A stretch of DNA of 63,997 nucleotides, filler included, from Barthelona sp. PAP020 (lineage: Eukaryota): assembly GCA_040182905.1 (NCBI GenBank). It is 25 parts of 25 records of this genome, joined end to end, with 100 filler letters (N's around TTAATTAATTAA, not from the genome) between each part and the next. Parts side by side here need not be neighbours in the genome. Positions count along the whole stretch, not along the records: positions 29,155 to 31,666 come from JARQWU010000824.1; 24 more parts are not named here. One strand, given 5' to 3'. Of this stretch, positions 11,681-63,997 are shown in pieces. Each line of letters begins with the position of its first letter. The first letter of the stretch is position 1. Both the position numbers and the translations under genes were made by a program. Under the pieces are notes generated by a model that ran no database searches, was not told the DNA's origin, and worked only from the letters and a program-made list of their open reading frames with translations.

Positions 11681-13324
11681 GTTTATCAGATATTTAGTCA
11701 CAAAACTTTTTCAATTTTATTCGATTTTATTGATTATGATTCGTTCATTCTTTAGAACAGTATACGGTGGACATCCGTTATTTTTTCATTTGATTTTTAT
11801 CAACCAGACATTATAAAGTTTCTTTTCATATTTTTGTTTTTTAACGTTGTCTTTTAGTTGAAATTAAACAATTTGAAAGATCTTGAAAACTCACAACATG
11901 ATGAAAGACTGGAATTTACAAATGTAATTTTTTATTTTTCTTCTTGTACGAACCTTTTCCAGAACTTTCCCAAATTAGAGACTGGGAAAACTCAGTTGAT
12001 TAATAAATAATAAACCTTAATCTTTATTCTTTTCGGGGGGTCCAGCGTTCTTGAAAGGAACTTCTCTTTTTTGAGACCTACTCTTTCATAGGCTTTCGTA
12101 GGAGAGCTACGCCTATGCAGGGTGTGAAATATTGCATTACTAATTGCTCAAAAGAGCTTAACGCCCCGATCTCTTTTAAATTTATCCTAATTGTGCAAGT
12201 TTTCATGCATTCACCGTGGTAGGTCAAAAATTTGGGCGTAGGTTAAGGAAAAGTTCTGTACCTCGAGGGAAAAAGGAAGAATAGGAAAATTTCGATTCGC
12301 CAAAAATAATGATAGGCTTGTGAACAACCCTCATTTTTTCTTTTGAATCATCTGATTTTTTGAGTGTTGCCTTACATTTCCCGTTTAAGAAGCGGTGTTC
12401 TATTAATGAAAAGAGAGGAAGAAGTTTTTATTTTGAAAACGTTTTCAAATACTGGTCAAACTGTTGAAATTCAAAGTTTTCTGGACTTTATATTAAAAAC
12501 GTTTAACAAGTGGGTTTTGAGTGTCATTGCATTGTAGATCAGTTCAATTATAAAATAGTTGACAGTGTACCATTTCTTTAAGCAACGTTTATATTACTTT
12601 ATTTATTCATAAATGAGTGCATATCACAATTATTTCCCTTAAATCCGACCAATTTCGAACATGTTTGAGTAATCATATTGTAGTCCTCATTATTGATGCA
12701 AACACATGTGCTTATCAATCGTATTATGATTTGACCATTAATATTTTCACCCTTTAGCGTTGAAATTAAATTTCAGTCCATCAATTCCCCTCTTTTGCTT
12801 TTGACAAAAAATTCCTTTGAAGATTTTGTGTTTTTGCTTTTTCTACAAATAAATATAGTTGTTTCACAACTGGACCAATTGATTTTAAAAATTTTGTGGA
12901 AATTCATGCTCAATGAACGGAATTTATTGGAGATATAAAGAGGTCAACAAATATCACTTCCTTAATTTGTTGTTTCTTGACCACCTTTAGGTCCAATTTT
13001 TTAAGTTACTTGGGCATCTGAATCCACGTGAGTTTTTCCCAAACCATAAGCTAACTCATACCTCATAAATATCTAATAAAGCTTTGAGTTGACAAGAATG
13101 AACTGTTTTTTTATCTTTAATTGGTCCAGTTGTGAAACAACTATATTTATTTACAAAGAAAGTAAACTTAGAAAATACATTCTGCCAGATTTCAGTCAAA
13201 ATCCCAGGGGGGAATTGAGGGACTNNNNNNNNNNNNNNNNNNNNNNNNNNNNNNNNNNNNNNNNNNNNTTAATTAATTAANNNNNNNNNNNNNNNNNNNN
13301 NNNNNNNNNNNNNNNNNNNNNNNN

Positions 13325-13540
13325 CATTTCAAACAGCCAGGATTCAAATTCAAGGCTTTCCCAACTACTCATTTCAATAACACACCGTATATAAAAGCTT
13401 TCGTATACCTTTTCTTGTACCTATCGTGAAATTCTGAATCTGTTGACCAAAACAGCAAAGATACCATGGAGTAATTTCCCCAACCCCAGTTAGTAAATAT
13501 AAATTAAAGCCTTTAATTTTACCCTTTCGTCAAACGTGAA
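13325..13540 (-). repeat. Pol III-downstream cassettes A (13431-13540) and B (13325-13430)
   Basis: A matches 29160-29273 and B matches 31567-31646; both begin TTCAC at the tRNA-proximal end. Confidence 0.85.
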
Positions 13541-13545: not shown

Positions 13546-13560
13546 GAGACTCGATCCTCA
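13546..13560 (-). promoter_or_regulatory. Downstream B-box-like motif TGAGGATCGAGTCTC
   Basis: Starts 23 nt after the first terminator T of tRNA-Ile; same motif and spacing at tRNA-Pro and SRP RNA. Confidence 0.7.
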
Positions 13561-13583: not shown

Positions 13584-13657
13584 TGGTACCACTGGGGCTT
13601 GAACCCAGGACCTTCGGTTTATTAGACCGAAACACTAACCAACTGTGCTATGGTACC
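13584..13657 (-). tRNA. tRNA-Ile (AAT)
   Basis: Cloverleaf GGTACCA..TGGTACC-A, anticodon arm TCGGT-CT-AAT-AA-ACCGA, T-arm GGTTCAAGCC; TTTT terminator directly after. Confidence 0.95.
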
Positions 13658-13768
13658 CTTCAGCAAAATGAAGTCTTTTTAAAAAATAAAAACATTGTGC
13701 AAATACAAGTATTCTTCTGAATAATTAATTTTAATAAATTTAAGATAAGCAAAATAATCATTCTTCTT

Positions 13769-13848
13769 TATTTTCAAGCCAAGAAGCACTGTGCGTATGA
13801 GTGAATAAAAAAGAATAATATTTATTTAGATGAAGGCTTTTGAGGTCA
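13769..13848 (+). repeat. Dispersed ~90-bp repeat (copy 1)
   Basis: CAAGCCAAGAAGCACTGTGCGTATGAGTGAATAA.. also occurs at 28961-29053 and 37401-37498. Confidence 0.85.
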
Positions 13849-18622: not shown

Positions 18623-21038
18623 AATTCCTACCCATTTTGTTATAGATACTAGGTTTGAGAATACCAACACCATTGAAACAGGATGGACAATGATACTTCT
18701 CAGGGATTTCTAACCAATTCATAAAGTTAAGAAAAACTTTATCCAAGTGAGGACAAATGTCGGTTGCTACTGGAGAATTTCTTAAGAAGAAATGAAATTT
18801 TGGATAAATATATCTTTTAAACATTACAAAAGCACCATGACGTGAAGTGTTTTGCATTAAAAAGTTAACATACTTCTCAAACTCAGCAGTGAGTCTATTT
18901 CTTGAAAAGTCTCGTATTCCAAGAGGAATTCCAAGAACTTCATCAAATTGATGTACTTGTTTACATTTGGTTGTATTTAACTCTAAATTGACATGAGAGA
19001 GAACAACTTGAGATAAATGAAAGACTTTTCTTTTAACAAATTCAGAACTTTTTGGAATAGCAATATGAATATCATCCAAGTATGCATAAATTTCAGCATC
19101 TGGTATTTGTTGTTGTATCTTTCGTAAACAAGGATCAATTCCAAGAGAGAATAATAATGGTGATAAAACACTACCTTGAGCAACGCCACTTGTCATGTTC
19201 AATGATAAGTTATCACATTGAGCTGAGATTCCACCATTGTAGAGAAATTTGAAATACTTAGAGTATTGGTGAAAAACAGGATCATTTGTGATACACTTAG
19301 CTATGTTGATTGAATTGAAGGCATTTTTACAGTCAAGTGAGTAAACATTATGTGTTGGGAAAAGCAAAGATATTTTGTGAGCGATTGCTGAACATCCATT
19401 TCTGATACCAATTCCATATTGATATGGTTGAAGATTTGGTGTCAGTTTCTCAGCTATTGTTTTGAATATGTGTTTCTCAACAACTTTCAAGAATGTATTA
19501 CCAATCAAAATTGGTCTGATTCTTTTCTTATCCTTTTTCAGTGGAATAAGTTTAGCTATTTTCAAATGTTTGCTACACTTACCTGAGAGGATATCATTGA
19601 AGATTTCAGTGACCAATGTTGATGTTAATTTGGAATCATATGCAGCACGTAACAATTCGATATTCCATCCAAAGATATCTGTTGAATATGAATTCTTTAT
19701 TGAGTTGAGTATTGATATGATTTGATTGGGATTAACTTTGGGACATTCTAACTCTGTGAGATCTTCAAGAGGGTTTTCAACACCAGTAGGAAATAGACGT
19801 TCCATTTCTCTTTTTATTACACTGTGATTTGTTTCAATTCCACCTGATCGGATTAAATTAGCAGCTGTTGAGTATCGACCTCTTGCTATTAGAGATTTAA
19901 GATCTTTTTGATGAAATTGTCTTTTGTTAGTTGATTCCTGTGTTGTAGAGTTTTGTATTGGTAATTTAAGTCGGTTGACTGTATCTTGATTTGAATCATT
20001 GTTGTGAAGATATAATGAAGGAAGACTCAATAAAGTGTTTGGACCAAATAGAAATGCTTCAGCAACTCTCAATTGCCAAAGTGACAATCCAAGTTCAGAT
20101 GTTGGAAGAGTTCGTTTTGTTCCTGTTTTTGGTACATGAGGTACATCTAAATCTGACCATTGAGAATTTGATATACTCAAACAATTATTATGTATTACAC
20201 ATTTATCATTGATCAAAATGCTACATAATTGTTTACATACTTTACAACGCTTTAATTGAGATGAATCTTCTTGAACAGTTTCATCTGATTCATTTTGAGT
20301 AGAATTAGTTGTTATTGCTCCACCAATTGAACCATAAACTCGTAACTTAACATATCTTAGTTTTGCTCGATTGAATGCTTTTGTCAATATATTATGGAGG
20401 TCCGTTTCGTTATCAAGTACAGCATAATCTGCTTCTTTGATACCATTTCGATGTTCATAATATATTTCCTTTTTAAATACATACTTTGGAACTATTGAAG
20501 TGTATGTCTCAATTTGATTTCGTAAATCAATAATGGAAATATTTAACGGAACCATGAATTTTATACATTTTGCAGGAGTTGCAAGTGGTATTATAATTGG
20601 ATGAATATCACCTGGATTTGCTTTTAATCTTAATTCAATTTCAACAGTTTCAACATCTGGATCTTCTATGATTTCATCTTCAGTAATTTCGGATGAAAAT
20701 TCAAGTGTTGAATCAGAATCTTCAATTAATAATGGTGTAGAAATAGTCTCTTCATCATATAAAGATGAATTTAATGTAGAATTTGATTCTTCAGTTGATA
20801 TAGGCGATCTTTTATCAATAACATCAAAACATGAATTTTGGCGGGTACGACAATCTTGTCTAAAAATTGTGTTTTCTTCAACTACAATTCTATCTGAGTC
20901 ATGAAAAACCTTTTTGTTAATGCTTGGAATAAAAGTAGTATTTTCAGTTTTTCTTTCATCATCATCTGAATAACTAGTATCAGAATCATCATTATTGTTT
21001 TTAACATGCACGCTGAATACATTAGCATAGGGCGGCAT
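18623..21038 (-). mobile_element. Non-LTR retrotransposon ORF (CRE-like reverse transcriptase), 3' truncated by contig end
   Basis: RT motifs LIPLKK..IRPILIG, QYGIG, SLDCKNAFNSI, GVAQGSVLSPLLF, YAYLDD. Upstream acidic region, PB1-like domain and CxxC..H..C finger. Second copy at 62504-63743. Confidence 0.9.
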
Positions 21039-26528: not shown

Positions 26529-28199
26529 GAAGATAATGGTCGACCAAAGAAGATTTATCATGCAGCGCTTGAAGGTAATCTTGAGGTTGTCAAGCAGTGT
26601 ATCAAAGCTGGCGTTGATGTGAACAAACAGGGTAAGGAAGGAAGGACAACGTTGTATGGAGCTTCTTTTAATGGGCATACAGAAGTTGTTGAGTTTTTGT
26701 TGGATTTTGGCGCTGATGTTAATTTGTGTATGAATGGGGGATTTTCTTCATTATATGTTAGTTGTCAAAATGGTCATCTTGATATTGCTAAAATGCTCTT
26801 GGATCATGGAGCTGATGGTAATTTGTGTCCTAATGATGGTTGTTCTCCATTATATGTCAGTTGTTACAATGGTCATCTTGATGTTGCCAGAATGCTCTTG
26901 GATCATGGGGCTGATGTTAATTTGTGTAGGAATGATGGTGCTTCTCCACTGTACATCAGCTGTGAAAAAGGTCATCTTGATGTTACTAAAATTCTCTTGG
27001 ATCATGGAGCTGATATTAATTTGTGCAATCACAATGGTACTTCTCCATTGTACATAAGTTGTCAAAATGGTCATCTTGATGTTGTCAAAATACTCTTGGA
27101 ATATGGAGCTGATGTTAATTTGAGTATGAATGAGGGATATTCTCCATTGTACATCAGTTGTGAAAAAGGTCATGTTGATGTTGCCAAAATGCTCTTGGAT
27201 CATGGAGCTGATGTTAATTTGTGTTCTAATGGTGTTTCTCCATTGTTTATTTGTTGTGCAAAAGGTCATCTTGATGTTGCCAAAATGCTCTTGGACCATG
27301 GAGCTGATGTTAATTTCTGTATGAATGATGGGGTTTCTTCATTGTTTATTTGTTGTGCAAAAGGTCATCTTGATGTTGCCAAAATGCTCTTAGATCATGG
27401 GGCTGATGTTAATTTCTGTATGAATAATGGTGCTTCTCCATTATATGTCAGTTGCTACAATGGTCATCTTGATGTTGTTAAAATGCTCTTGGACCATGGC
27501 GTTGATGCTAATGTGTGTATGAAGGATGGTTTTTCTCCATTATTTGTCAGTTGTGAACAAGGTTATCTTGATGTTGTGAAAATTCTCTTGGATCATGGGG
27601 CTGATATTAATTTGTGTCCTAATATTAGTACTTCTCCATTATATGTCAGTTGTCAAAATAACCATCTTGATGTTACTAAAATTCTCTTGGATCATGGGGC
27701 TGATATTAATTTGTGTAGGAATGATGGTGCTTCTCCATTGTACATCAGTTGTCAACAAGGTCATCTTGATGTTGCCAGAATGCTTTTGGATCATGAAGCT
27801 GATGTTAATTTGTGTATTAAGGATGGTACTTCTCCATTATATGTCAGTTGTTACAGTGGTCATCTTGATGTTGTCAAAATGCTCTTGGATTATGGGGCTG
27901 ATGTTAATTTGTGCAATCACAATGGTGCTTCTCCATTGTACATTAGTTGTGAAAAATGTTATCTTGATGTTGTCAAAATGCTCTTGGATTATGGGGCTGA
28001 TATTAATTTGTGCAATCACAATGGTACTTCTGCATTGTACATCAGTTGTCAATTTGGTCACCTTGACATTGTTAAACTTCTATTAGATCACAGAGCCGAT
28101 ATAAATCTCAAATTTCAACAAAAATGGACACCAATGGATATTGCCACAGACGAAGGTCATTCCAAAATTGTACAAATTCTCCAGCCCTTCTACAATTGA
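26529..28199 (+). CDS. Ankyrin-repeat protein (~16 repeats), 5' truncated
   Basis: Tandem 99-bp units encoding GxSPLYISCxxGHLDVAKMLLDHGADVN; same QPFYN end and 3' flank as 6647-7909. Confidence 0.93.
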   Translation, partial: EDNGRPKKIYHAALEGNLEVVKQCIKAGVDVNKQGKEGRTTLYGASFNGHTEVVEFLLDFGADVNLCMNGGFSSLYVSCQNGHLDIAKMLLDHGADGNLCPNDGCSPLYVSCYNGHLDVARMLLDHGADVNLCRNDGASPLYISCEKGHLDVTKILLDHGADINLCNHNGTSPLYISCQNGHLDVVKILLEYGADVNLSMNEGYSPLYISCEKGHVDVAKMLLDHGADVNLCSNGVSPLFICCAKGHLDVAKMLLDHGADVNFCMNDGVSSLFICCAKGHLDVAKMLLDHGADVNFCMNNGASPLYVSCYNGHLDVVKMLLDHGVDANVCMKDGFSPLFVSCEQGYLDVVKILLDHGADINLCPNISTSPLYVSCQNNHLDVTKILLDHGADINLCRNDGASPLYISCQQGHLDVARMLLDHEADVNLCIKDGTSPLYVSCYSGHLDVVKMLLDYGADVNLCNHNGASPLYISCEKCYLDVVKMLLDYGADINLCNHNGTSALYISCQFGHLDIVKLLLDHRADINLKFQQKWTPMDIATDEGHSKIVQILQPFYN

Positions 28200-28899: not shown

Positions 28900-29053
28900 T
28901 TTCAGTTCCTTCCTGGGGTTTTGACTGAAATTTGCTGGAATGAGTGTTCTATGTTTACTTATTTCCAAGCCAAGAAGCACTGTGCGTATGAGTGAATAAG
29001 AAAGAATAGTGTTTATTTGGTTAAAGGCTTTCGAGGCCCGATTGATCTGTTGA
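28900..29053 (+). repeat. Dispersed repeat (copy 2)
   Basis: 28961-29053 matches 13769-13848 and 37401-37498; 28900-28960 resembles the reverse complement of 13150-13222. Confidence 0.8.
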
Positions 29054-29159
29054 ANNNNNNNNNNNNNNNNNNNNNNNNNNNNNNNNNNNNNNNNNNNNTT
29101 AATTAATTAANNNNNNNNNNNNNNNNNNNNNNNNNNNNNNNNNNNNNNNNNNNNCTCAA

Positions 29160-29273
29160 AGAATTCTGAATCGGTTGACCAAAACAGCAAAGATACCATG
29201 GAGTAATTTCCCCAACCCCAGTTAGTAAATATAAATTAAAGCCTTTAATTTTGTCCCTTTCGTCTAAAGTGAA
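29160..29273 (-). repeat. Pol III-downstream cassette A (copy 2)
   Basis: Nearly identical to 13431-13540; begins TTCAC at the tRNA-proximal end. Confidence 0.88.
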
Positions 29274-29285: not shown

Positions 29286-29300
29286 GAGACTCGATCCTCA
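29286..29300 (-). promoter_or_regulatory. Downstream B-box-like motif TGAGGATCGAGTCTC
   Basis: Starts 23 nt after the first T of the tRNA-Pro terminator. Confidence 0.7.
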
Positions 29301-29324: not shown

Positions 29325-29396
29325 GGTCGCCGCCGGGAATCGAACCCGGGACCTCTCGCACCCTAAGCGAGTATTATACCGCTAAACTACGGCGAC
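29325..29396 (-). tRNA. tRNA-Pro (AGG)
   Basis: GTCGCCG/CGGCGAC acceptor stem, anticodon arm CTCGC-TT-AGG-GT-GCGAG, T-arm GGTTCGATTCC, TTTTT terminator. Confidence 0.95.
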
Positions 29397-30945: not shown

Positions 30946-31243
30946 GGCTTGGTTCCTGGGTGTTGCATATGTGACACCTGTAACCGAAAGGGGGATTGTC
31001 CAAGCTAGGAATATGTCAGATTCCGGTGGGCAGAAATGCAAACGCATGTAGATGACTAGTCTTCTGAGTCGAACGGACCATCTTACTCTCTTAATGTAGG
31101 TCTAGGGAGTTTGAAAGTGCTAAGTGTTGGAACTGGGCAAGGCGAGTTTGATCGAGCAGTCCTAACAGCATCCGAATTGATTCTCAGGAGATGGCTGGTT
31201 TGAGTGAGAGTTTGCAGGGAGTTCGCTGATCTAGGGATAGACC
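30946..31243 (+). ncRNA. Signal recognition particle RNA (7SL)
   Basis: ~298 nt. Alu domain (GGCTTGG/CCAAGCT, GGGTGTTGCA/TGTGACACCT, TGTAA motif). Helix 5 pairings (TGCAAAC/GTTTGCA, CTTCTGAG/CTCAGGAG, CGGTGGGC/GTTCGCTG). Helix 8 GGGC-AAGG-CGA..TCG-AGCA-GTCC. TTTT terminator at 31244. Confidence 0.88.
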
Positions 31244-31266
31244 TTTTCAAGGTCCGTTATGAGGGC

Positions 31267-31281
31267 GGAGGATCGAGTCTC
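31267..31281 (+). promoter_or_regulatory. Downstream B-box-like motif GGAGGATCGAGTCTC
   Basis: Starts 23 nt after the first T (31244) of the SRP RNA terminator. Confidence 0.7.
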
Positions 31282-31290
31282 TCAAAAGTG

Positions 31291-31646
31291 TTCATAGCAA
31301 AGCGGACGGATTCATGATGCAAAACAGAAAATTCACGTTAGGTACAAGAAAAGGTATACGAAAGCTTCACTCGACATTCATGATGCAAAAGTGTTCGTAG
31401 CAAAGCGGACGGATTCATGATGCAAAACAGTTTCACGTTAGGTACAAGAAAAGGTATACGAAAGCTTTTATATACGGTGTGTTATTGAAATGGATAGTTG
31501 GGAAAGCCTTTTCACACGACAATAATAAAAAATGTTTATAAAGATCTTTATTGTTCTCGGTTAGATTTCACGTTAGGTACAAGAAAAGGTATACGAAAGC
31601 TTTTATATACGGTGTGTTATTGAAATGAGTAGTTGGGAAAGCCTTG
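31291..31646 (+). repeat. Polarised stack of 10 short cassettes (D,C,B,E,C,D,C,B,E,B), each starting TTCA/TTCG
   Basis: Starts at 31291, 31311, 31332, 31366, 31377, 31394, 31414, 31432, 31511 and 31567. B copies are 34, 79 and >=80 nt with a shared proximal end. Confidence 0.85.
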
Positions 31647-31746
31647 AATTTGAATCCTGGCTGTTTNNNNNNNNNNNNNNNNNNNNNNNNNNNNNNNNNN
31701 NNNNNNNNNNTTAATTAATTAANNNNNNNNNNNNNNNNNNNNNNNN

Positions 31747-32791
31747 NNNNNNNNNNNNNNNNNNNNTAACAGCTGTTGATGATTTGGTGTTGTTGATGAG
31801 AAAGAGTTTTGAGCTTTCTCATTCAATTAATATATCTAGAGATCATCTTGTATCTCAAATTGATTTTCACTCAGTTTTTAACATTGTCAATGTTTGTGCA
31901 ACATTATTTGAAGAATTGACTCACAAACTTGCAAATTTTGTTAAACTTCCTGTTGATCAGTTGATTCAAGAATATTTTTCAGCAACAAATGATGAATTGG
32001 TGGCTCTTAAAAATATTCTCACCAAGCCAAGAAATGAAATTATTGAAGGCTTGGCTGATTTTACTCAAATTGTGCAAAAATTCCAAAATGAAGTTAGTTC
32101 TTCTCTTTCTTTATTGTCTAATATGGGTTCCAAAGATTTTTCATCTGAAAATTCCGATGAATCTGAAGTTATTCGTGATTTAGCCGATACTTTTGGAGAA
32201 AAAGTACTACCAATTGTAAAACAAAGAGCTTCAGAATTAGTTCAAAGAGCAGATGCTCCTGAAGCTTGGGTAAATATGCCCATTGCTGATTTAATTCAGC
32301 ATTTTAATGATTTGGCCAATGCTGTCACTCAAAACTCTAAATTAACTGGTGGAAATGTTTCTCTAACAATGGATCCCGAAGAATTCGCTTCAATAAATGA
32401 ACAAGGACACTTATTAAAGTTTGTTTTTGAAGGAGGTACTCATTTACACATGCCACCTGTTTTAGAGGATGTCATTCGTGATTTAATATTCAATTCCAGA
32501 AAATATTCACCCATTGGTACCACAATTACTGCACATATTTTTAATACAAAGAATAGTTTGCACATATCTATCTCTGATTTCGGTTATGGTTTTGATAGTG
32601 AAAAGGAATTGTACATGTGTGTTCAATATGGAGTAAGAAAGATGAAAAATTCTTCTGTTCGTAATTTAGGCTTAGGATTTGGTTTGACAAAGGCCGTTTT
32701 AATTACTGAATTTTTCAAAGGTACTTTTAAGATCTCAACTGCTCCTAAAATGGGGACAAGAATTAAAATCAAATTACCAAGACCCGAATAA
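31747..32791 (+). CDS. Sensor histidine kinase (HATPase_c), C-terminal fragment
   Basis: N box (VIRDLIFNSRKY), G1 (ISDFGYG), G2 (GLGFGLT) and terminal GTRIKIKLP. Confidence 0.85.
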
Positions 32792-35552: not shown

Positions 35553-37400
35553 AACTCCACATTGCATTTTGCACTAGTAATCATTATTACATGTTTCACC
35601 TCGCTTCTCAGGTTCTGCAACTGGTAAATTTAAAACACATCTTCATTTCATCATTTTATTCATTTTGTCAGGAAAATTTTTCCTCCCATTTTTTTCATAT
35701 TTGGCAAAAGCCAATTTATTCTAGTTTTCAACTTTCACTTTCGAAAGATAGATATTGTTGTTTCATTTTAAATCAATAAGGGTATTTAAAGCCTTCAACA
35801 AAAAGAACATGACTCTTTCTTATTCACTTTTTTTTCACTGGGTTTCTTTGCAAATAAAATTCTTTCCATTTTTGAAGTTTAAATTTTGAAATTTTGAAAT
35901 TCACAGAACAATAATAATAATTGCTTATAAAGACCTCTTTTGTTCAGGGTTAAAAGTTAGGAGTATTTGCAACTAGGTCTTTTTGTGTGGAGGGTTCAGA
36001 ACACTCCTAAAGATAAAAAAGAAATGCTTCCGGTTTAATGAGGGTATTTAAAGAAAAGAGTAAAATTTTCCTGCCCTTGATTCACTTTAAATTTCAACAA
36101 TAAATTTTGAAGAGTTTATGTCCAACTCTTAGGTGTGTGTGTGGGGGGGGGGGGGATTCTAGTTGAGATGTTAGCAGCATAATCTTTCTTTCCCTCTTTA
36201 AAACAAAAATTTTTTCATTCCAAACTTTTGAAACTTTTGAAAGGTGGCAAGAAAACCTATTCTTTCTTGATGATTTGGCAAATATCTTTTCCTCATTTAT
36301 GGAGTTCTGGTTGTAAACTGATTCATTTATTGACATACTAGTATTGAATGTTGAAAATTTCACTGTGCCAGTTTAAAATGTCTCCACTTATGTTCTCTTT
36401 TTGACACTTTTATATTCGTTGTTGGCTTAATTTATTTACTTGTATCCCTAATCTTATAATTCTTACGATTCCGTGTTATTGCGAGCTTTTCAATTTTGAT
36501 ACCCATCAATATCAAAAATTGCAAAAAGAAACCTTGAACACATTTATATTGTCTTTTGCATGAATTTCACAAAGAGTGGATTATTTTATAAAGGACATTC
36601 AGTTCACAAACCAGAATCAGAGCAAGAACTGACAAACACAAACTAGCCAACTTCTCATCCGATAATCTTCACAAAAGCTTTGATGATCATTTTCAGTTTT
36701 GAAGATGTGAATGTTGTTGAAAATTAATTTGGCAACAACAAAAATTTCACCGAAAGAGGACGCAAAGGAAGAATTAACCCAAAATACTCCTGCATATAAA
36801 GCTAATAATCCCATAAGAAAGAAAATTTTAAATCTGGAAAAGAGGAGATCAAAACAATAAGAATTTTATTTTCTAAAGGACCGCNNNNNNNNNNNNNNNN
36901 NNNNNNNNNNNNNNNNNNNNNNNNNNNNTTAATTAATTAANNNNNNNNNNNNNNNNNNNNNNNNNNNNNNNNNNNNNNNNNNNNGTTTTTGTCTCTTCTT
37001 TAAGATGGCCTGGTGCATGTCATATTTCTTTTGAAAGAACATTCTTCAATTGTTATATTGGTAATGGTTTACCATATTCTCCAGTTAGTGTTGTTCCAAG
37101 TTTACCAAAATTCAACATGGAATATGATTATCTCAACAAAAGCTTAAAATTGTATGATGAAGAAGAAGATCCTCATGATGTTGTAAAACCTGAAGACAAA
37201 AATAAGGACGAAGAAAAGAATGATCACGATGATAATGATGAAGAGGAGAATGATGATGATGAAGAGGATTAATTGTGTAACTTGTATCTTGGAGCAAAAT
37301 AAAAATTATTTGTAAAATGAACGTTTTTTCTTTTATCAAACCATTTAGAAACAAAACATTTGTTGAAATTCTTGCTTAAAAGAAATAAATAGAGTACTAA

Positions 37401-37498
37401 TTATTTCCAAACCAAGAAGCACTGTACGTATGAGTGAATAAAAAAAAGAACAGTGTTTATTTGGTTAATGGCTTTCGAGGCCCGATTGATCTGTTGAA
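37401..37498 (+). repeat. Dispersed ~90-bp repeat (copy 3)
   Basis: Near-identical to 28961-29053. Confidence 0.85.
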
Positions 37499-38259: not shown

Positions 38260-39489
38260 ATGGTTGTTGACACTGTAGTTGAGGAAACTGATCCATATAT
38301 AAAGTATAACATGGATCAAGTTGTTGTTCCGGATGGGTTTGATGTGGATGGATTTGAAGATAATGGTCGACCAAAGAAGATCTATTTTGCAGCATGTGAT
38401 GGTAACCTTGAGGTTGTCAAGCAGTGTATCAAAGCTGGCGTTGATGTGAACAAACAGGGCAAGGAAGGAAGGACATCGCTTTGGGGAGCTGCTTTTTGTG
38501 GGCATATAGAAGTTGTTGAGTTTTTGTTGGATTTTGGCGCTGATGTTCATTTGAGTATGAATGATGGATTTACTCCATTATATGTTTGTTGTCAAAATGG
38601 TCATCTTGATGTTGCCAGAATGCTCTTGGATCATGGCGCTGATATTAATTTGAGTATGAATGATGGATATTCTCCATTGTACATCAGTTGTCAAAATGAT
38701 CATCTTGATGTTGCCAGAATGCACTTGGATCATGGGGTTGATGTTAATCTGTGTAATAATAATGATGCTTCTCCATTGTACATCAGTTGTCAAAATGGTC
38801 ATTTTGATGTTGCCAAACTGCTCTTGGATCATAGAGCTGATGTTAATCTGTGTAATAATAATGGTGCTTCTTCATTGTTCATTAGTTGTCAAAATGGTCA
38901 TCTTGATGTTGCGAGAATGCTCTTAGATCATGGAGCTGATGTTAATTTGTGTCCTAATGATGGTGTTTCTCCATTGTATGTTAGTTGTCTAAATGGGCAT
39001 CTTGATGTTGCCAGAATGCTCTTGGATCATGGAGCTGATGTTAATTTGTGTGACAATGATGGGTGGTCTCCATTGTACATCAGTTGTGAACTTGGTCATC
39101 TTAATGTTGCCAAAATGCTTTTGGATCATGGGGCTGATGTTAATTTGTGTAAGAATAATGGTGTTTCTCCATTGTACATCAGTTGCCAAAAAGGTCATCT
39201 TGATGTGGCCAGAATGCTCTTGGATCATGGAGCTGATGTTCATTTGTGTAGGGACGGTGGATTTTCTCCATTGTATGTTAGTTGCCATAAAGGTCATCTT
39301 GATATTACCAAGATGCTTCTAGATTGTCCCGAAATAAACTTATATGGTGAAGATATGCTGTTTTTTTTCAACAAATTGTATACAAGTGATGAACAATGGA
39401 AAAAGAACAAATGCAGTATTTTGAGCTGTCCCAATTTAAAACAACAATTGAAGAGTGGTGAGCCTGTTGATTTGAAATTTGAGCATTTG
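38260..39489 (+). CDS. Ankyrin-repeat protein of the same family, lacking the kinase domain, with an unrelated C-terminal segment
   Basis: Shares the DPYIKY.MD.VVVPDGFDVDGFE leader and ankyrin repeats with 6647-7909; switches to non-ankyrin sequence near 39325. Confidence 0.85.
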
Positions 39490-42190: not shown

Positions 42191-42510
42191 GCAATTGACA
42201 GATAGTTCAACCAAAGTTGTGAAGCTCTATGACATCAGTATTGCCAACTCAATCGAGTATGCTGAAAGACGCAAAAAGTGCAAGTTCGGTAATACTGTTG
42301 TTCCTCTGGTGTTTTTAGAGACTGGTCTTTTCTCAAGTACAGTCTCTACTTTCTTCAACAAGTGTCTGCAAACAGTCTCTCCATACGTCAAGCACACGCT
42401 CTGGCCTCGCATCAGGTACAGGCTCTCTGGACTTCTCGCAGAGTTCTGGGCCCTGCTACAGGCAACAAAGTAACAATGTGTAGCATTTGTTTTGTAAATA
42501 GGTAAAATAG
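42191..42510 (+). mobile_element. 3' end of an RLE-type non-LTR retrotransposon (endonuclease C-terminus, short 3' UTR, TAG tail)
   Basis: LYDISIAN..AERRKKCKF..VPLVFLETG resembles the restriction-like endonuclease D..E..K.KY..P..ETxG. Near-identical inverted copy at 63766-63997. Confidence 0.75.
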
Positions 42511-42538
42511 TGAATTTGTTAAAAAGGAAAGCATTGGA

Positions 42539-44684
42539 TCAATTGTAGAAGGGCCACAAAAGCTCTACAATTTGGGCATGACCGTTGGTTCGGGCAATAT
42601 CTATTGGTGTCAATTCTTGTTCAGTTTTGAGGTTGACATTGGCTTTATGATACAAGAGCATTTTAGCAACATCAAAATGCCCATTTTGACAACTAATGAA
42701 CAATGGAGAAGTGCCATCATCTCTACACAAATTAATATCCTCCCCAAGATCCAAGAGCATTTTAGCGATATTAACATGACCAAATTCACAACTCACAAAT
42801 AATGGCGACTCACCATTATTCATACATAATTTGACATTGGCACCATGATCCAAGAGCATTTCGGCAACATCAAGATGACCAAATTGACAACTAATATACA
42901 ATGGAGAAGTACCATTCCTATTACACAAATTAACATCAGCCCCATGATTCAAGAGCATTTTGGCAACATCAAGATGACCATTTTCACAACTACCATACAA
43001 TGGAGAAGCACCACGTTTGTCACATTGATTGAAATCTACCCCATGGTCCTCTAAGAGCATTTTGGCAACATCAAAATGACCTTTAAAACAACTAACGAAC
43101 AATGAAGAAAAACCATATTTAGTACATTGATTGGCATCAACTCCATGATCCTTTAAGAGCATTTTGACAATATCAAGATGACCTTCTAGACAACAAATAT
43201 ACAATGGAGAGCGACCATCTTCATCGCATTGATTAACATTAACCCCATGATCCAACAACATCTTTGCAACATCAAGATGACCTTTTTGACAACTAATATA
43301 CAACGGTGAAACCCCATTGATCTTGCATTTGTTGACATCAGCTCCATTGTCCAAAAGCATTCTAACCACATTCTTATGCCCATTTTCACAGGCAGTAAAC
43401 AATGAAGAAGCACCAGTATTCTTACAAAAATTGATGTCAACCTTAAAATCTAACAAGACCTCAACAATATCACTGTGCTCACAAGAAGAAGCCTCCCAAA
43501 GAACGCTTTCACCCTCATTTCCAAACTTTATCCATTTTTTAACAACTTCCAATTTTCCATCACGCACACTATGATATATCGTATCTGTATTGCAATATTC
43601 TGAAAAATTATCTGGAACAAGAACCTCATACAATCTATGTTTCACATAAGAATCACAAATAGCCGACTCAAGTTTTTTCTTTTCTTCCTCGTTATTTTCA
43701 TCCAAATTATGTTTCTTAAAATAATCACAAACAAGGAAAGAAATACATTTTTTCAAGTCAACAATCAACCCATCGAGATACTCAACTATTTCTGAAAACA
43801 ATGGTCTTTTATCGGGATCACGATTAAAACACTGAGACACAAAATTATATCCAATGACCGACTCCAATTCTTCATGTTTAAAAGGCAATTCACCTTTATT
43901 TAATTTTAGAGGAATTCTAAAATCAGGAATTCCTTCAAAAGGCTGAAACATTGTAATCACTTCAAAGTAAGTTGTTGCAAAAGCCCAACAATCAATACCA
44001 GGATGAGCAAAAATATCATTATTTACCAACTCAGGAGGCATATAACAAATGGTTCCTGTTCTAGACATCCTACTGTTTCTTTCAAAACAACGAACAAGAC
44101 CAAAATCGCACAGAACAGTAGTTCCATCATTTTTGATCAAAACATTCTTTGGATTGACATCTCGATGTATCACACCTTTACTATGACAAAACTCAAGTGC
44201 AGAAGCCAGTTGGAACATACTGATTAATCTCTCAATAACAGTCATTTTATGCATTCTTTTACTCAGTGTGTGTGGGCAATATTCCATCACAATGCCCCAT
44301 TTAATTTGATCTGCGACCTCCTTAGATGTCATACCATACACTTTGCAAATAAATGGATGAGAAAATGTAACAGCAATACATTCACCTTTCACTTCTTTTT
44401 TAGTTGAATCACGGGTATACTTTATAGCAACATTGGAGCATTGATATTGACCAAAATAAACTGTGCCATAACCACCCGATCCTAATTCTCTTTCTTCATT
44501 TAACAGTTCATAATCTATAAAAGGAACCTCAATTCCAGAACTGACGAGTTTGTGTTCAAATTCATTCATTTTTTGTTGCAACTCTTCCATCTTTTTCTTA
44601 CGTTCCAAAGGGTCCATTTTCGACATTTCATTCATTTGCAAATTTTGTTTTGAATTGAAAATTTCATCCATATTGAAAATATGC
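42539..44684 (-). CDS. TKL-like protein kinase plus C-terminal ankyrin repeats
   Basis: LGSGGYGTVY, VAIK, HRDVNPKN, DFG and YMPPE motifs, followed by ~10 ankyrin repeats. Confidence 0.92.
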
Positions 44685-45435: not shown

Positions 45436-46326
45436 CTAATTAATTTGTATTTCCTCATCATCTGAAAGCTCAATATCATCCCATTGATGTAAACATTGTC
45501 TCCAATATTTCATTTGCTTGTCTAATTGTCGTTTACCTATTCTTTGAAAGATGTTTGGAGTGTTTGGATCATTTGGCCCTCTTTTATCTTTTGGAATGGT
45601 TTTCAGATATTTTTTATAACTGGAAGTATCTTTACCAATGTCAATTTGTTTTTGACGTTGCGCAATTCTTCTTTCATTCGTTTCAATTGGAAAAAGTTTG
45701 GCTTTTGAACAAAAATCTTTTCCTTGATTGAGAATAATCATATTTTTCTCTTTGTTGGTATCTTCTTCTACTTTTTTAAAATCGATTTTTCTATTTGCTT
45801 TGGTTTCTGAAGAAACAACTACATTTAACGGAAAAGTACAAACATTATTCATAGCAGATGGACTATCAGGATGAAAATCATCGTTTGGATTGCTAAATCT
45901 ATCTGATATAGCAATAGCTGGTGCACTGGTACTTGGTCTAAGAATAACATTTGAAAACTCAAATTTGCTTTCATCTAAAGTTTGAGATAAAGATTCTTGT
46001 GTGTTTGTCACTCTAGTAAAACTTATTTCATACTTTAAATTCCAAAAGACAAAACATTTTTCAAAATTTGTTTTTTGTGATGATGGTATGCAAATAGAAA
46101 CAAATTTTCCATTTTTCCGAACTAATTCATGCCTTATTCTTCGACGAGAATAAAGGTTTTCAGATAAAGAGAGAAGCAATCTTTCATTCACATCATCTGG
46201 AATTGTATAGAATATATACTCACTTCCTCCTCTCATTTCCAATTGATTAATATAATTATAATCTTTTGGGAAGAAAAAAAGGAGAAAAAATGTTTCTTTC
46301 CCAAAAAATTGAAATTTGCAAACCAT
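45436..46326 (-). CDS. SLBP: Histone mRNA stem-loop binding protein
   Basis: C-terminal ETNERRIAQRQKQIDIGKDT..Y..Y..IPK..R....P.TP..KR..D..MKYWRQCLHQWD is the SLBP RNA-binding domain. Confidence 0.88.
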   Translation of the reverse strand: MVCKFQFFGKETFFLLFFFPKDYNYINQLEMRGGSEYIFYTIPDDVNERLLLSLSENLYSRRRIRHELVRKNGKFVSICIPSSQKTNFEKCFVFWNLKYEISFTRVTNTQESLSQTLDESKFEFSNVILRPSTSAPAIAISDRFSNPNDDFHPDSPSAMNNVCTFPLNVVVSSETKANRKIDFKKVEEDTNKEKNMIILNQGKDFCSKAKLFPIETNERRIAQRQKQIDIGKDTSSYKKYLKTIPKDKRGPNDPNTPNIFQRIGKRQLDKQMKYWRQCLHQWDDIELSDDEEIQIN

Positions 46327-47367: not shown

Positions 47368-48193
47368 ACCTTAATTGCTCTTCTCTCTTTTCAAATATTG
47401 TAACGTAAATTTCTTCAACGTTGAATAATAATGCATTGTCAAATATGATTTTTAAGAATCTTTCTCCTAATTTTAAACCATTTGATGTAACTTTAAATGT
47501 GCCAATTTTTAATCGCCTTTTGGGTGGCAAACTTGGTGTAACGTCACTGTAATTTTCATCTTTTTCCTCTTTCTTTAAGTATAAAAAAGCCTTAATACCC
47601 CCATCAGAAATACATATGTATGAAATATTCTCAGATTTACGATTAAACCAATCTTTAAACTCATCATAATCTTCTTTGAATGAGTCGAAGAAAGTATCAT
47701 CTATGTTTATATTTCCAAAGTATTCTTTTTTTACTGCCAGAATCTGGTATTCTTTTAATAGGGGATTTTCTGCAATACACTTTTCTAAAAAAGACTCAAT
47801 TTTAAAGACTTTTTCTGCACATCCTAATAATTCTGCTTTTCGATGAATACCTCTATCTTCTGTAATTAAAAAATCAACTCTATTATTATAAACTTCTTTT
47901 AAAATACTTGTGTCTATATAATCATTTTCGGAAGTATCTGATTGTCGTATTTGCTCTATTAATTTATCATCGGTAGACTCTGTTTGTAAAACATTGTAGC
48001 TTGCAATCTTTATTTTCATCATTTCTACAACAGTTGTGTCTTTGTATGAAGAAATTTCCTTAATAGAAAGAGGATGAACATATTTTTCAAATTTTAATTT
48101 ATCAAGCCAATTAAAGAGTAAACCTATATCTTCATTAATAACTCTATTCGCTTCACGATGAATTATTATGTTTGTATCAATCAGTACTTTCAT
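47368..48193 (-). CDS. Bacterial PIN-domain plus GNAT-like fusion protein, 3' truncated
   Basis: MKVLIDTNIII..D..IL..FLITEDRG (PIN), then FFDSFKEDY..W..K and LKIGTFKV..G..LGERFLK (acetyltransferase). Start overlaps the upstream stop. Confidence 0.82.
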
Positions 48194-48711
48194 AATTGTT
48201 TTAATTGGTTAAGAATTGTTGTTTCTCCATCGTTTACAATAAACAAAGGAATATTTAATTTGTCGGAAATTTCTTTTGCAAAAGAAATTTCCATTTTCTG
48301 CATCTTTTCAAGTGTCGATAAATCATATTTAATACAATCTCTATTATTTAATCTTTCATAGATTATTTGTGGAATACAAGACAGTACTATAATCGAAATT
48401 GGATTAATTTCATAAAAAACAGTTTCTTCTATTCTTTGAGGTTTTCCTCCTGAATCTAATAACGTGAAATGTCCATCAAGTAAATACTTTTTGTCTTCAG
48501 ATATTATTGTCTTTAGATTGACAATTAATCGTTCTTGTGTCGTTGCAAAATTTTTAACTCTTTTACTTTTTGAGACACAGATTTCATCCCATTTTAAAAC
48601 TTCGCTTGCCGATAAATGAACATAATCTAACTCTTTCGCAATCTTTTTACAAAATGTTCCTTTTCCAACCCCGTGGATGCCTCCAACAAATATTATATTA
48701 TTAGTTTCCAT
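48190..48711 (-). CDS. Bacterial P-loop nucleotide-kinase-like ATPase (AAA_17/adenylate-kinase-like)
   Basis: IIFVGGIHGVGKGT Walker A, LSASEVLK and LLDGHF motifs. Confidence 0.85.
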   Translation of the reverse strand: METNNIIFVGGIHGVGKGTFCKKIAKELDYVHLSASEVLKWDEICVSKSKRVKNFATTQERLIVNLKTIISEDKKYLLDGHFTLLDSGGKPQRIEETVFYEINPISIIVLSCIPQIIYERLNNRDCIKYDLSTLEKMQKMEISFAKEISDKLNIPLFIVNDGETTILNQLKQL

Positions 48712-49165
48712 AAATCGCGGATTGCATTGGCCACAACTTAGTTATCTCTCTCCCAAAACTACACCTGCATCCTATTTTCTCCTTTCCATGTGTAGTTTTC
48801 CCTCTCACTGTTCTCTCCCAAAACGACAGCTAAAAATAGCAATAAAAATTATACCAATACCATCATATTTTCAATATTTTGTGAAAAGTACATTCGCTTT
48901 GCTCTTATAATCTAGTGGTTGGCTAAAAGTTGGCTGTGTTTTGCAGAAGAAGATATGCTTACAAAATAAAAACAAAAACGATATTGTTGGCATGGTATTT
49001 TTTACTCATACTGTGTTATCTGCCTCTTTAGTTTTTGTAATGCTCTGCACTACCACTTAGATTCCAAAATGATGTTACCTGTATTTATTCTTGCGTAGAT
49101 TTTGACTCTTCAACCGATAAGTATATTCAACGAAATTGTATTGATTTCTTTGTTCTGACTTTCGA

Positions 49166-49414
49166 TCATTCTTTATTTATATTTATTTCAAAGTCAAAAA
49201 GCTCTTTGGGTTGTATACCAAGTCCTTTTGCCAATTCTAAAACAGTGGACATTTGAATATTTTTTTTCCCTTTTTCAATCTTGCGAATATCACTATGATC
49301 TAAATTACAGTTCAACGCTAATTTCCGGAAACTAAGATTTTGTTCTGTTCTGAAATGTTCTAAACGTTTTCCAAAAAGAAGGAGAAATTCATTTTTATCG
49401 TTAAGAATTGCCAT
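49166..49414 (-). CDS. XRE-family helix-turn-helix transcriptional regulator
   Basis: FGKRLEHFR..LSFRKLA..DIRKIEKGKKN..STVLELAKGLGI.PKELFD. Confidence 0.9.
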   Translation of the reverse strand: MAILNDKNEFLLLFGKRLEHFRTEQNLSFRKLALNCNLDHSDIRKIEKGKKNIQMSTVLELAKGLGIQPKELFDFEININKE

Positions 49415-49457
49415 ATAAAAATTGTTGAATGGCAATTTCAGCATTATGAATAAAAAT

Positions 49458-49501
49458 ATTGTGGGTAAAATAACCCACAATTGAAAAAATTATTATATTT
49501 G
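49458..49501 (+). promoter_or_regulatory. Palindromic operator plus Bacteroidota-type -7 promoter element
   Basis: ATTGTGGGT-N6-ACCCACAAT perfect inverted repeat; TATATTTG (TAnnTTTG) at 49494-49501. Confidence 0.7.
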
Positions 49502-49575
49502 TCCCGACATTACATCGGAGAAGATGTAATTTTGCGAACCTTCGAAAAGAAATTAGAAGTATTCGCTTTGAGTCT

Positions 49576-49710
49576 CGGCTTGAAAACTGGTAATTTTTAC
49601 GGAACGAGATGATAAGTAAGAAAAACTCACGACCTAGGCGTGGGTTCTCTTATCGTTCCGAGGTATACCAGTACCACAAGCCGGTAAGTTGAGCCCGCGC
49701 CCTTTTTATT
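49576..49710 (+). ncRNA. Candidate structured leader RNA
   Basis: Nested helices CGGCTTG/CAAGCCG, ACTGGTA/TACCAGT, CGGAAC/GTTCCG, GATAAG/CTTATC and AACTCACG/CGTGGGTT, followed by a U-tract. Confidence 0.62.
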
Positions 49711-49909
49711 TCCGGCGTTTATAGTTTTAATCAGCTCAACTGAATTGTTCAGGTCATGCCTCTGATCAGACATCGCTTGATAATATTGGAATAAGAAGTT
49801 AAAAAGGTGNNNNNNNNNNNNNNNNNNNNNNNNNNNNNNNNNNNNNNNNNNNNTTAATTAATTAANNNNNNNNNNNNNNNNNNNNNNNNNNNNNNNNNNN
49901 NNNNNNNNN

Positions 49910-59893: not shown

Positions 59894-60160
59894 NNNNNNN
59901 NNNNNNNNNNNNNNNNNNNNNNNNNNNNNNNNNNNNNTTAATTAATTAANNNNNNNNNNNNNNNNNNNNNNNNNNNNNNNNNNNNNNNNNNNNTTGTGTT
60001 CCGAATTAAGATAATTCTGATTGGAAACTAATTTTTACTTTACTTACAGCTTGTGTAACGTTCTTATTCTTATTATAAATTATTGTATATGTATTGCATC
60101 ATATTTAACAATCAGAAGTGCAAGAATAGAACCTAAAACAATGTTTATTTTGTCATTTGG

Positions 60161-60188
60161 GTGAAATCCGTCCGCTTTGCTGCGAACA
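60161..60188 (-). repeat. Isolated cassette D followed by TTTCAC
   Basis: TGTTCGCAGCAAAGCGGACGGATTTCAC matches 31392-31417. Confidence 0.7.
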
Positions 60189-61429
60189 ATTTATATCCAA
60201 CTATAAAGTGTAGAGGGTTGTGTTTGAGATATTAGCTGGATCGTCTTTCTTTTCCACCAATAAGGAAAAAAGAAATTGACTGGTTGAACTGAACTAAAGA
60301 AATTACAAAGTGAATATCAATTAGAATGTTGGAATGAAACTTTTGAAACTTTTCGAAAGTTTGGGATGTTGTTTTCTTTCTTTGCATGTTAACACCTCAA
60401 ACATAGGGACTCCTCCTTCTGTTAACTTTTATTTCCTTTACCTACCAGTTTTGAAACTTGTATAAATGGAATATATTTTCAGATGCTACAAATCTCGCTG
60501 TGCTAGTTCAAAGAAAGGAAAATATGGGCAAAGAATTGCACATAAAATCTTTCCTTTTCTTGATTAAAGAAATTTAAACGTTTATAAACTTCTTTCATTT
60601 TTACTCTGAAATTTGTGAAAATTGATGAAACTACTTTTCTCCTCCAAATGGTCAAATATTTTTTCGGCATTTTTAAACTTCCGAATTTGCATCAATTCTA
60701 CTATTTGAACTCAATTATTAATCAATTAAAATCTCGAAAATTGCAATGTTGCAGTGTAAAAAACAAAAATGCTTGCTAACACACAAATGACAGAACAATC
60801 AAAGGATAAAAAAAACATCTACTCATGCATAAAAAACTTTATAAGTTAGATTGAGCATGAATAGTGAACCAGAAATGTCCATTTTTTTTGTTTCTATTAG
60901 GCAGTTGGTCAAAATTTGTTGCTGGAACAAACTCAAGATGAAAAACCAAAATTCTGAAATCAAAATGTGGAAAATGATATGTTTAATTGTCTTTAAGCAA
61001 TGAAAATTGAAGAATGAAGAATTTTTCAGCCAACAAACATGTTCACTTTGCATTCCTCATCAATGAAGATTTTGTGGAACTCTCCAAAAAAAAAGAAGCT
61101 CAAATATATTTAAATGATTATTTTTCACATTCTACATGGTTTAAAAATTTGGAGAATAGAAAATTTTGATAAACTTGACAAAATGTTCATATTTTTTTTG
61201 TTGTCTTTTTTCTATTTTTACAAGGTATGTTTTGTGTGTTTTTTTACATGATGAATATGTAGTCCGTGTTTCTGATGTAACCCATGAAGAGAAACATTAC
61301 CACCTTTTGGTGATCTGATTTTATCATTTTATCTTTTGTTTAGAACTTAGCTAATATTAGTGTACAATAATTTTCAAATCAAGCTATTTTTCAATCATAA
61401 AAATCAGATATTTGTATTTTTTTAATTAA

Positions 61430-63743: not shown

Positions 63744-63997
63744 ACTACTACTACTACTACTACTATTTTACCTATTTACAAAACAAATGCTACACATTGT
63801 TACTTTGTTGCCTGTAGCAGGGCCCAGAACTCTGCGAGAAGTCCAGCTAGCCTGTACCTGATGCGAGGCCAGAGCGTGTGCTTGACGTATGGAGAGACTC
63901 TTTGCAGACACTTGTTGAAGAAAGTAGAGACTGTACTTGAGAAAAGACCAGTCTCTGAAAACACCAGAGGAATAACAGTATCACCGAACTTGCACTT
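63744..63997 (-). mobile_element. RLE-type element 3' end with (TAG)7 tail, joined head-to-tail to the RT copy
   Basis: Reverse complement of ~42276-42510; CTA x7 at 63745-63765. Confidence 0.82.

What the first reader, a model, noticed from the sequence alone, without database searches (positions are those of the whole stretch)
31291..31646. Polarised array of TTCA-headed cassettes stacked downstream of Pol III genes: candidate site-targeted insertion system
Seen: 43-50 nt past each terminator, modular cassettes begin. SRP locus: D,C,B(34 nt),E(11),C,D,C,B(79),E(56),B(>=80). tRNA-Ile locus: A then B. tRNA-Pro locus: A. Every cassette has a fixed gene-proximal end starting TTCA(C/T) or TTCG. 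B, C and E have variable distal ends, and the same cassettes appear in different combinations at different loci. Known: one fixed end plus variable truncation is the signature of 5'-truncated retroposed copies, and Dictyostelium TRE3 elements insert downstream of tRNA genes. Inference: several element families ending ...GTGAA insert repeatedly, antisense, at a fixed offset from the downstream motif and push older copies away, giving a chronological stack. Targeting includes the SRP gene, not only tRNAs.
Basis: partly seen in the sequence, partly recalled or inferred. Interest (0 to 1): 0.9.

Follow-up and report, generated by a model that had tools for sequence, protein, structure and literature searches.

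The report
Retroelement tails stacked behind tRNA genes
In this single-celled eukaryote, two tRNA genes and a probable SRP RNA gene share a conserved 14-base signal just downstream, followed by one-way stacks of short repeat fragments that are likely the tail ends of jumping genes inserted backwards there, a habit otherwise described mainly in slime moulds.

Summary
The repeats are real. Behind tRNA-Ile, tRNA-Pro and a probable SRP RNA gene, an identical 14-mer (B-box-like) lies 19-20 nt past the terminator: 3 of 3 genes, no other exact copy in the window. TTC(A/G)-headed fragments start 5-12 nt after it, all on one strand. All 6 A/B copies lie in these zones (0.6% of the window).

New here: A and B are related. 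Read antisense to the Pol III gene, both end a similar reading frame about 50 nt before the fixed head, so they are probably 3' ends of coding elements. This favours 5'-truncated non-LTR retrocopies, oriented opposite to Dictyostelium TRE3.

- The SRP stack repeats the order D-C-B-E (p about 0.01) between 11-nt direct repeats, so it is partly one duplicated or transduced block.
- A newest-proximal chronology is not supported.
- D has no variable end.
- Diverged D, E, F and G copies lie away from Pol III genes.

No parent element, genome, reads or relatives were found; all three contigs end inside a cassette. Verdict: probably a new variant of tRNA-3'-targeted retrotransposition with a convergent external B box. 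Three loci only; mechanism inferred.

The parts
30950..31247 (+). Probable SRP (7SL) RNA gene with T4 terminator at 31244-31247; 5' end approximate
   Evidence: Rfam Protozoa_SRP 30974-31216, 40.6 bits, E 8e-7 in a 1-kb search, below gathering score 65; fold z -1.09
31268..31281 (+). Conserved 14-mer GAGGATCGAGTCTC, external-B-box-like, 20 nt past the terminator
31283..31396 (+). Proximal block D-C-B34-E11-C' flanked by an 11-nt direct repeat (31283-31293 and 31386-31396); probably one duplicated or transduced unit
   Evidence: direct repeats; repeated order p=0.010
31394..31431 (+). D (20 nt) plus C (18 nt), probably one unit
31432..31510 (+). B, 79 nt, broken just after a TT
   Evidence: 77 of 79 identical to the distal B
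31511..31566 (+). E, 56 nt
   Evidence: 81% to 35900-35952
31567..31666 (+). B, at least 100 nt, cut by the contig end; its minus strand carries a reading-frame end
   Evidence: 99% to B at tRNA-Ile
13584..13657 (-). tRNA-Ile(AAT)
13546..13559 (-). 14-mer behind tRNA-Ile
13431..13540 (-). A, 110 nt, head 5 nt past the 14-mer
13325..13430 (-). B, at least 106 nt, cut by the contig end; frame end 13327-13380 on + strand
29325..29396 (-). tRNA-Pro(AGG)
29286..29299 (-). 14-mer behind tRNA-Pro
29155..29273 (-). A, at least 119 nt, head 12 nt past the 14-mer, cut by the contig end; frame end 29157-29225 on + strand
35900..35952 (+). Diverged E copy, TTCAC-headed, no Pol III gene detected nearby
60110..60192 (-). 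D-like copy (head 60186) followed by TTCAC-headed F (head 60165, distal end not defined); no Pol III gene detected
42192..42514 (+). 3' end of an RLE-type non-LTR element; read antisense it also begins TTCAC at 42514 (comparison case, not part of the stacks)

Best explanation
The fragments are likely 3' ends of several related non-LTR retroelements, predicted to be copied by target-primed reverse transcription into the DNA just past a conserved B-box-like motif behind Pol III genes, pointing against the gene. Shown: the motif and its spacing; one orientation; fixed heads and variable tails for A, B and E; A-B homology with a frame ending about 50 nt from the head on the antisense strand; 6 of 6 A/B copies in the motif zones. 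Inferred: TFIIIC bound at the motif tethers the integration complex. The enzyme nicks the tRNA-sense strand at a TTCA(C)-like site, primes cDNA on the element RNA's 3' end and usually stops early. The TTCAC is regenerated, as a short target duplication or as the element's own end, so every insertion offers a new site and stacks grow at any head, not only the proximal one. The proximal 103 nt at SRP are probably one event, either a retrocopied composite read-through RNA with an 11-nt target duplication or a local templated duplication.
For: Motif: 3 exact copies, all behind Pol III genes; T4 plus motif 3 against 0 in 100 shuffles. Location: an A/B profile finds 6 copies at E<=1e-6, all within 290 nt past a motif on the gene strand; these zones are 0.6% of both-strand sequence. 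Homology: A-B DNA alignment score reached by 1 of 1000 (local) and 0 of 1000 (end-anchored) shuffles; peptide score by 9 of 1000 shuffles and 6 of 1000 random segments. Given 19 mismatches in 39 nt, the amino-acid score is reached by 0.18% of random placements, block chosen after seeing it; stops lie 49 and 51 nt from the fixed end. Junctions show 0-2 nt overlap with the head, and an 11-nt direct repeat ending in TTC flanks the proximal block. The genome holds a recently active non-LTR family with the same geometry, a fixed 3' end followed head-to-tail by a 5'-truncated copy 98% identical to a longer one. One copy of that 3' end is TTCAC-headed when read antisense, where paralogous empty flanks carry TTGAC/TTGAA-TTCAC. 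5' truncation and variable target duplications are standard for non-LTR elements (PMC2881922 passages).
Against: No parent was found. The A/B peptide ends do not match the C-termini of the window's RLE relatives or of the other stored RT proteins (best score 25), and a 32-residue frame holding the A end found 0 hits among 1.84 billion proteins. No poly(A) tails. Inserts of 11-110 nt are very short. All three breakpoints with a near-identical longer copy fall right after TT (TT frequency 0.146), which fits nested insertion into TT equally well. Proximal copies are more mutated than distal ones. E, D, F and G copies occur off Pol III genes. The second copy of the RLE 3' end has an (AGT)n tail and no GTGAA. 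Predicted hairpins are not more stable than shuffles (z -1.5 to +1.9). Only three loci.
Confidence: 0.55

Rival explanations
1. Nested insertion of full-length elements. Each new element (DIRS-like recombinase, rolling-circle or LTR type) lands at a TT inside the head of the previous one, so distal copies are the youngest and the interrupted remainders lie beyond the contig break.
For: 3 of 3 informative breaks follow TT. Distal copies are longest and 99% identical between loci while proximal ones are short and mutated. DIRS-1 targets its own copies (PMC5633606 passage). Skipper-2, an LTR element, inserts downstream of tRNA genes.
Against: Needs repeated hits within 11-110 nt of the previous head, all in one orientation. 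Heads do not begin TG and do not end CTRR as LTR and Helitron ends do (recalled definitions). The E11 break has no TT. No integrase, recombinase or Helitron domain among the 62 frames scanned with Pfam.
Confidence: 0.2
2. Dispersed short repeats that self-nest at TTCA-like sites without real Pol III targeting, plus local microhomology-driven duplication. The clustering behind tRNA genes reflects tolerated space and the fact that short contigs end in repeats.
For: D, E, F and G copies and the TTCAC-headed RLE end lie off Pol III genes. The proximal 103 nt at SRP can be rebuilt from downstream sequence by switches at short repeats.
Against: 6 of 6 A/B copies sit in 0.6% of the sequence, first heads 5-12 nt past the motif at three unrelated genes, one strand. 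The window holds 181 TTCAC sites, yet no A/B copy lies at one outside the zones.
Confidence: 0.15
3. Short-read misassembly created the SRP stack by joining repeat nodes.
For: All three contigs end inside a cassette and the window is 25 contigs of about 2.5 kb. No reads could be examined.
Against: Internal repeats are at most 80 nt. Copies carry private differences (D1 vs D2, B79 positions 62-63, E11 position 6). The motif-to-head arrangement recurs on three contigs.
Confidence: 0.05
4. The fragments are retrocopied 3' ends of host mRNAs and GTGAA is the host poly(A) signal, like Giardia's WGURAA.
For: Stop codon about 50 nt before GTGAA; WGURAA is the Giardia signal (PMC11529991 passages).
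Against: GTGAA occurs in 2 of 20 host 3' flanks against 1.27 expected. The copies end exactly at the motif, with no downstream transcript sequence or poly(A).
Confidence: 0.05

Closest known systems
TRE3 non-LTR retrotransposons of Dictyostelium with the external B box (PMC5911963, PMC5006619, PMC3159450, PMC5391098; passages read)
   Same: Insertions a few tens to hundreds of bases downstream of tRNA genes, one orientation, tandems at one gene, and an extra B-box-like motif downstream of the gene (about 41 bp, 66% of tRNA genes in PMC3159450; 24-25 nt from the tRNA end here).
   Different: TRE3 is co-oriented with the tRNA and has a poly(A) tail; here the coding strand is antisense, with no A-tail and a TTCAC junction. 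First heads sit 5-12 nt from the motif. A probable SRP gene is also used. The host is probably not a dictyostelid (closest RT relative is a barthelonid protein, 41%).
NeSL-1_TV, LIN15_SM and LIN25_SM, RLE elements specific for tRNA genes (PMC4640811 passages and S6 file passages)
   Same: Precise 3' boundary, variable 5' boundary in this class, tRNA-associated target. TV is recalled as Trichomonas vaginalis, a metamonad.
   Different: Their 3' boundaries fall inside the tRNA gene and are co-oriented (NeSL-1_TV in the T-arm of tRNA-Pro), one isotype family each. Here the gene stays intact and unrelated genes share an external motif.
Skipper-2 LTR retrotransposons of dictyostelids
   Same: Insert 7-140 bp downstream of tRNA genes.
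   Different: LTR elements; no LTR-like ends or integrase seen here.
DIRS-1 (PMC5633606 passage)
   Same: Self-targeting gives nested arrays.
   Different: No tRNA preference stated in the passages read; no tyrosine recombinase or terminal inverted repeats found here.

Membership tests
TRE3 | Insertion 40-150 bp downstream of tRNA genes | tested here: met
   First heads 43 nt (Ile) and 51 nt (Pro) past the tRNA end
TRE3 | Same transcriptional orientation as the tRNA | tested here: not met
   The conserved frame end is on the opposite strand; TRE3 orientation
TRE3 | 3' poly(A) tail | tested here: not met
   At most 2 extra T before the heads in the stacks
TRE3 | L1-clade ORF2 with APE, RT and zinc finger | not testable with these tools
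   No parent sequence recovered
Non-LTR retrotransposon (RLE or APE) | Fixed 3' boundary and variable 5' truncation | tested here: met
   A, B and E heads identical in position across loci; tails vary. Not met for D.
Non-LTR retrotransposon (RLE or APE) | ORF ending shortly before the 3' end | tested here: inconclusive
   Homologous 17-22 residue frame ends, p 0.002-0.009, block chosen post hoc
Non-LTR retrotransposon (RLE or APE) | RT and endonuclease encoded by the parent | not testable with these tools
   Contigs end 100-119 nt into the element; the window's RT family has a different C-terminus
Non-LTR retrotransposon (RLE or APE) | Target-site duplication or defined target | tested here: inconclusive
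   One 11-nt direct repeat and a shared TTCAC; no empty allele of a Pol III locus available
External B box (Dictyostelium exB) | B-box sequence at a fixed distance downstream of tRNA genes | tested here: met
   Core GATCGAGTC differs from GTTCRANNC at position 2; 3 of 3 genes, 19-20 nt past the T-run. That A is tolerated there is recalled.
External B box (Dictyostelium exB) | TFIIIC binding | not testable with these tools
   Needs ChIP or EMSA
LTR retrotransposon (Skipper-2) | LTR termini TG...CA (recalled) | tested here: not met
   Heads begin TTC
Helitron/Helentron | 3' CTRR and stable subterminal hairpin (recalled) | tested here: not met
   Ends read GTGAA; fold z-scores -1.5 to +1.9 for 8 of 8 sequences
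DIRS-like tyrosine-recombinase elements | YR gene and terminal repeats | not testable with these tools
   Parent not recovered; no YR domain in 62 frames scanned

The most novel reading that the evidence does not exclude
A metamonad lineage has independently evolved an external B box shared by tRNA and SRP genes, and a family of retroelements uses it as a landing pad. They prime at TTCAC a few bases past the motif, insert antisense without damaging the gene, regenerate their own target, and retrotranspose composite read-through RNAs, building self-renewing polar arrays behind the whole Pol III gene set.
Probability: 0.3. Interest if true: 0.75.

Novelty: new variant of a known kind. Interest (0 to 1): 0.5.

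Why it matters
A 2018 review (PMC5911963) states that insertion downstream of tRNA genes is found only in dictyostelids, where an external B box is thought to widen the TRE3 window. A second, unrelated protist with a downstream B-box-like motif and elements packed 5-12 nt behind it, in the opposite orientation and also behind a probable SRP gene, would be an independent case of convergence. It would also give a sharper test of TFIIIC-tethered integration than TRE3. The 14-mer itself is a candidate Pol III promoter element for this lineage. My nine relevant paper searches listed no report of this in barthelonids or related metamonads; the library lacks most subscription papers.

Tried and rejected
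No whole genome was held.

Exact-pattern scans for B found 0 loci in metagenome, viral and prokaryote collections. Scans for A found 0 in prokaryote and viral collections. A T-arm plus terminator plus motif-core pattern gave 29 metagenome loci; none resembles the cassettes (best 15-19 nt matches) and those with tRNAs look prokaryotic or viral, so I treated all 29 as chance. The motif plus TTCA gave 10 viral loci, 0 of 10 with a tRNA. The stack has no match in plasmids or phages.

Parent search: the 32-residue frame holding the A end gave 0 hits; a query this short has little power. The Atlas gave no result. C-termini of the 42 stored proteins do not match A or B. A ribosomal protein S3 search gave one 48% hit and did not fix the lineage.

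Rejected readings: stable hairpins as a shared signal; GTGAA as host poly(A) signal; CRISPR-like or integron-like arrays (no constant repeat with unique spacers, no inverse core site; from the sequence); homology of G to A (121 of 500 shuffles) and only weak to B (21 of 500); RNA genes near the off-gene copies (best E 0.26). Earlier scan notes for this genome or sequence: none.

Full report
Setting. The window is 25 contigs, 24 of about 2.4-2.6 kb and a last one of 1.5 kb, joined by N-spacers, from an AT-rich eukaryote (about 30% GC; eukaryotic genes). No whole genome is held and no sequencing run was listed. The closest relative of the window's reverse transcriptase is a Barthelona protein at 41% identity, so a barthelonid-like metamonad is likely but not established; a ribosomal protein search did not settle it. 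All conclusions rest on three loci, each cut by a contig end inside a cassette.

The genes and the motif. tRNA-Ile (13584-13657, minus) and tRNA-Pro (29325-29396, minus) are solid. The SRP RNA at about 30950-31247 is probable: Rfam Protozoa_SRP, 40.6 bits, E 8e-7 in a 1-kb search, under the gathering score. The 14-mer GAGGATCGAGTCTC has three exact copies in the window, one behind each gene, 19-20 nt past the T-run; T4 plus motif occurs 3 times against 0 in 100 shuffles. Its core differs from the B-box consensus GTTCRANNC (PMC5391098 passages) at one position. Dictyostelium has external B boxes about 41 bp behind 66% of tRNA genes (PMC3159450 passages). That the motif binds TFIIIC is inferred.

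The cassettes. First heads lie 9 (SRP), 5 (Ile) and 12 (Pro) nt past the motif. A, B and E start at the same base in different upstream contexts, so the fixed head is real. A profile of A and B finds 6 copies at E of 1e-6 or better; all 6 lie in the zones behind the motifs, which make up 0.6% of both-strand sequence. These are three independent loci, not six.

What A and B are. A and B align collinearly from the head: 1 of 1000 and 0 of 1000 shuffles reach the DNA scores. On the strand opposite the Pol III gene both end an open frame, and the ends align without gaps around T-A-K/R-I and F-P-N. The peptide score is reached by 9 of 1000 shuffles and 6 of 1000 random segments, and by 0.18% of random placements of the same number of mismatches, with the block chosen after seeing it; the stops lie 49 and 51 nt from the fixed end. 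I read them as the C-terminus and short 3' UTR of two related coding elements. This is modest evidence from 13-22 codons. E and F may also be related (1 of 500 shuffles), but not clearly to A/B.

(1) The order D-C-B-E occurs twice (p=0.010 in a label shuffle), and an 11-nt direct repeat ending in TTC flanks the proximal block; a 15-nt repeat also flanks B34-E11. The proximal 103 nt are probably one duplication or one retrocopied composite. (2) Newest-proximal order is not supported: proximal D and E copies each carry an extra change relative to the off-gene copies, while distal B copies at two loci differ at 1 position in about 100. (3) D ends at the same base in 3 of 3 copies and probably forms one unit with C. 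(4) Diverged copies occur off Pol III genes: E-like 35900, D-like 60192 with F behind it, and four G copies, one of them 111 nt upstream of tRNA-Ile and one at a contig end; Rfam finds no RNA gene near three of these sites.

The TTCAC head. The window holds an RLE-type non-LTR family: an RT frame at 18623-21038, a 98% identical copy truncated 600 nt into the frame, and a 3' end whose protein matches the Barthelona element's C-terminus (28%, E 1e-8). One 3' end carries an (AGT)n tail followed head-to-tail by the truncated copy, the same geometry as the stacks. The other is followed by GAA, so it reads TTCAC antisense, 24 nt past an ankyrin-kinase stop, where two paralogous empty flanks carry TTGAC or TTGAA then TTCAC. 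GAA has frequency 0.027, and this is 1 of 2 copies. It hints that TTCAC is a target sequence. A and B are not this family: their peptide ends do not match it or any stored RT C-terminus.

Mechanism. Best reading (0.55): target-primed reverse transcription at TTCAC-like sites past a TFIIIC-bound motif, antisense, with early 5' truncation and a regenerated target. 5' truncation and variable target duplication are described in PMC2881922 (passages). Main rival (0.2): nested insertion of full-length elements at TT, since 3 of 3 informative breaks follow TT (frequency 0.146) and distal copies look youngest. Untargeted self-nesting with local duplication (0.15), misassembly (0.05) and host mRNA ends (0.05; GTGAA in 2 of 20 flanks against 1.27 expected) are weaker.

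Comparison. It works like TRE3 but is not a member: TRE3 inserts 40-150 bp downstream in the same orientation and has an A-tail (PMC5911963 and PMC5006619 passages). RLE elements specific for tRNA genes exist, but NeSL-1_TV, LIN15_SM and LIN25_SM have their 3' boundaries inside the gene (PMC4640811 passages and S6 file passages). Penelope-like elements give truncated tandems, but the passages read mention no tRNA targeting (PMC8557442). Passages of PMC11316075 on repeats in BaSk genomes mention no such arrays; its supplements were not read. Two unchecked scan notes describe LINE pieces behind tRNA genes in yeast genomes; I did not test them, and they would weaken the claim that the habit is rare.

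Search for parents and relatives failed: 0 loci for A or B in the collections scanned, 29 chance loci for the motif architecture, and 0 protein hits for a 32-residue frame. The element class therefore stays open.

Verdict. A real, non-random feature: a new variant of a known kind, with a candidate external B box shared by tRNA and SRP genes and an orientation opposite to TRE3. Interest 0.5, limited by three loci, truncated contigs and no parent.

Noticed in passing
window 18623-21038 (-), 62504-63997 (-), 42192-42514 (+): Recently active RLE-type non-LTR family. A 3' end with an (AGT)n tail is followed head-to-tail by a 5'-truncated copy 98% identical to a longer one. Closest relative is a Barthelona protein at 41%.
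   Followed up: partly
window 60236-60270 (-): A degenerate form of the motif (2 mismatches in 10) lies 20 nt after a T6 and 49 nt before the off-gene D copy. Three such degenerate sites are seen against 1.2 expected, and no RNA gene was found upstream; possibly a decayed or unrecognised Pol III locus.
   Followed up: partly
window 28956-29054, 37398-37498, 13768-13845, 35788-35828: Dispersed repeat G of about 100 nt, 80-92% identical, TTCAAC-headed in two copies; one copy lies 111 nt upstream of tRNA-Ile on the gene's strand and one about 70 nt before the off-gene E copy.
   Followed up: partly
window 12775-12891, 13108-13224, 28902-28960: Another repeat of about 115 nt, with two copies in inverted orientation on one contig (74% identical).
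   Followed up: no
window 47368-49809: Contig that looks bacterial (PIN domain, AAA/kinase, Cro/C1 HTH genes packed together); probable contaminant in the bin.
   Followed up: no
window 31769-32791 (+): Protein with a C-terminal histidine-kinase-like ATPase domain (PF02518) on the contig after the gap; not physically linked to the stack.
   Followed up: no
window 45436-46326 (-): Histone stem-loop-binding protein domain (PF15247, E 1e-24); PMC11529991 notes that Giardia lacks an SLBP homologue.
   Followed up: no
window 61243-61322 (+): Weak C/D-box snoRNA-like match (E 0.027, below gathering score).
   Followed up: no
window 6647-7840, 26730-28199, 38260-39489, 42539-44671: Expanded ankyrin-repeat (kinase) gene family with paralogous 3' flanks, useful as empty-site controls.
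   Followed up: partly
L001, L006, L019: Metagenome contigs with dense tRNA arrays (14, 16 and 46 genes), unrelated to this finding.
   Followed up: no
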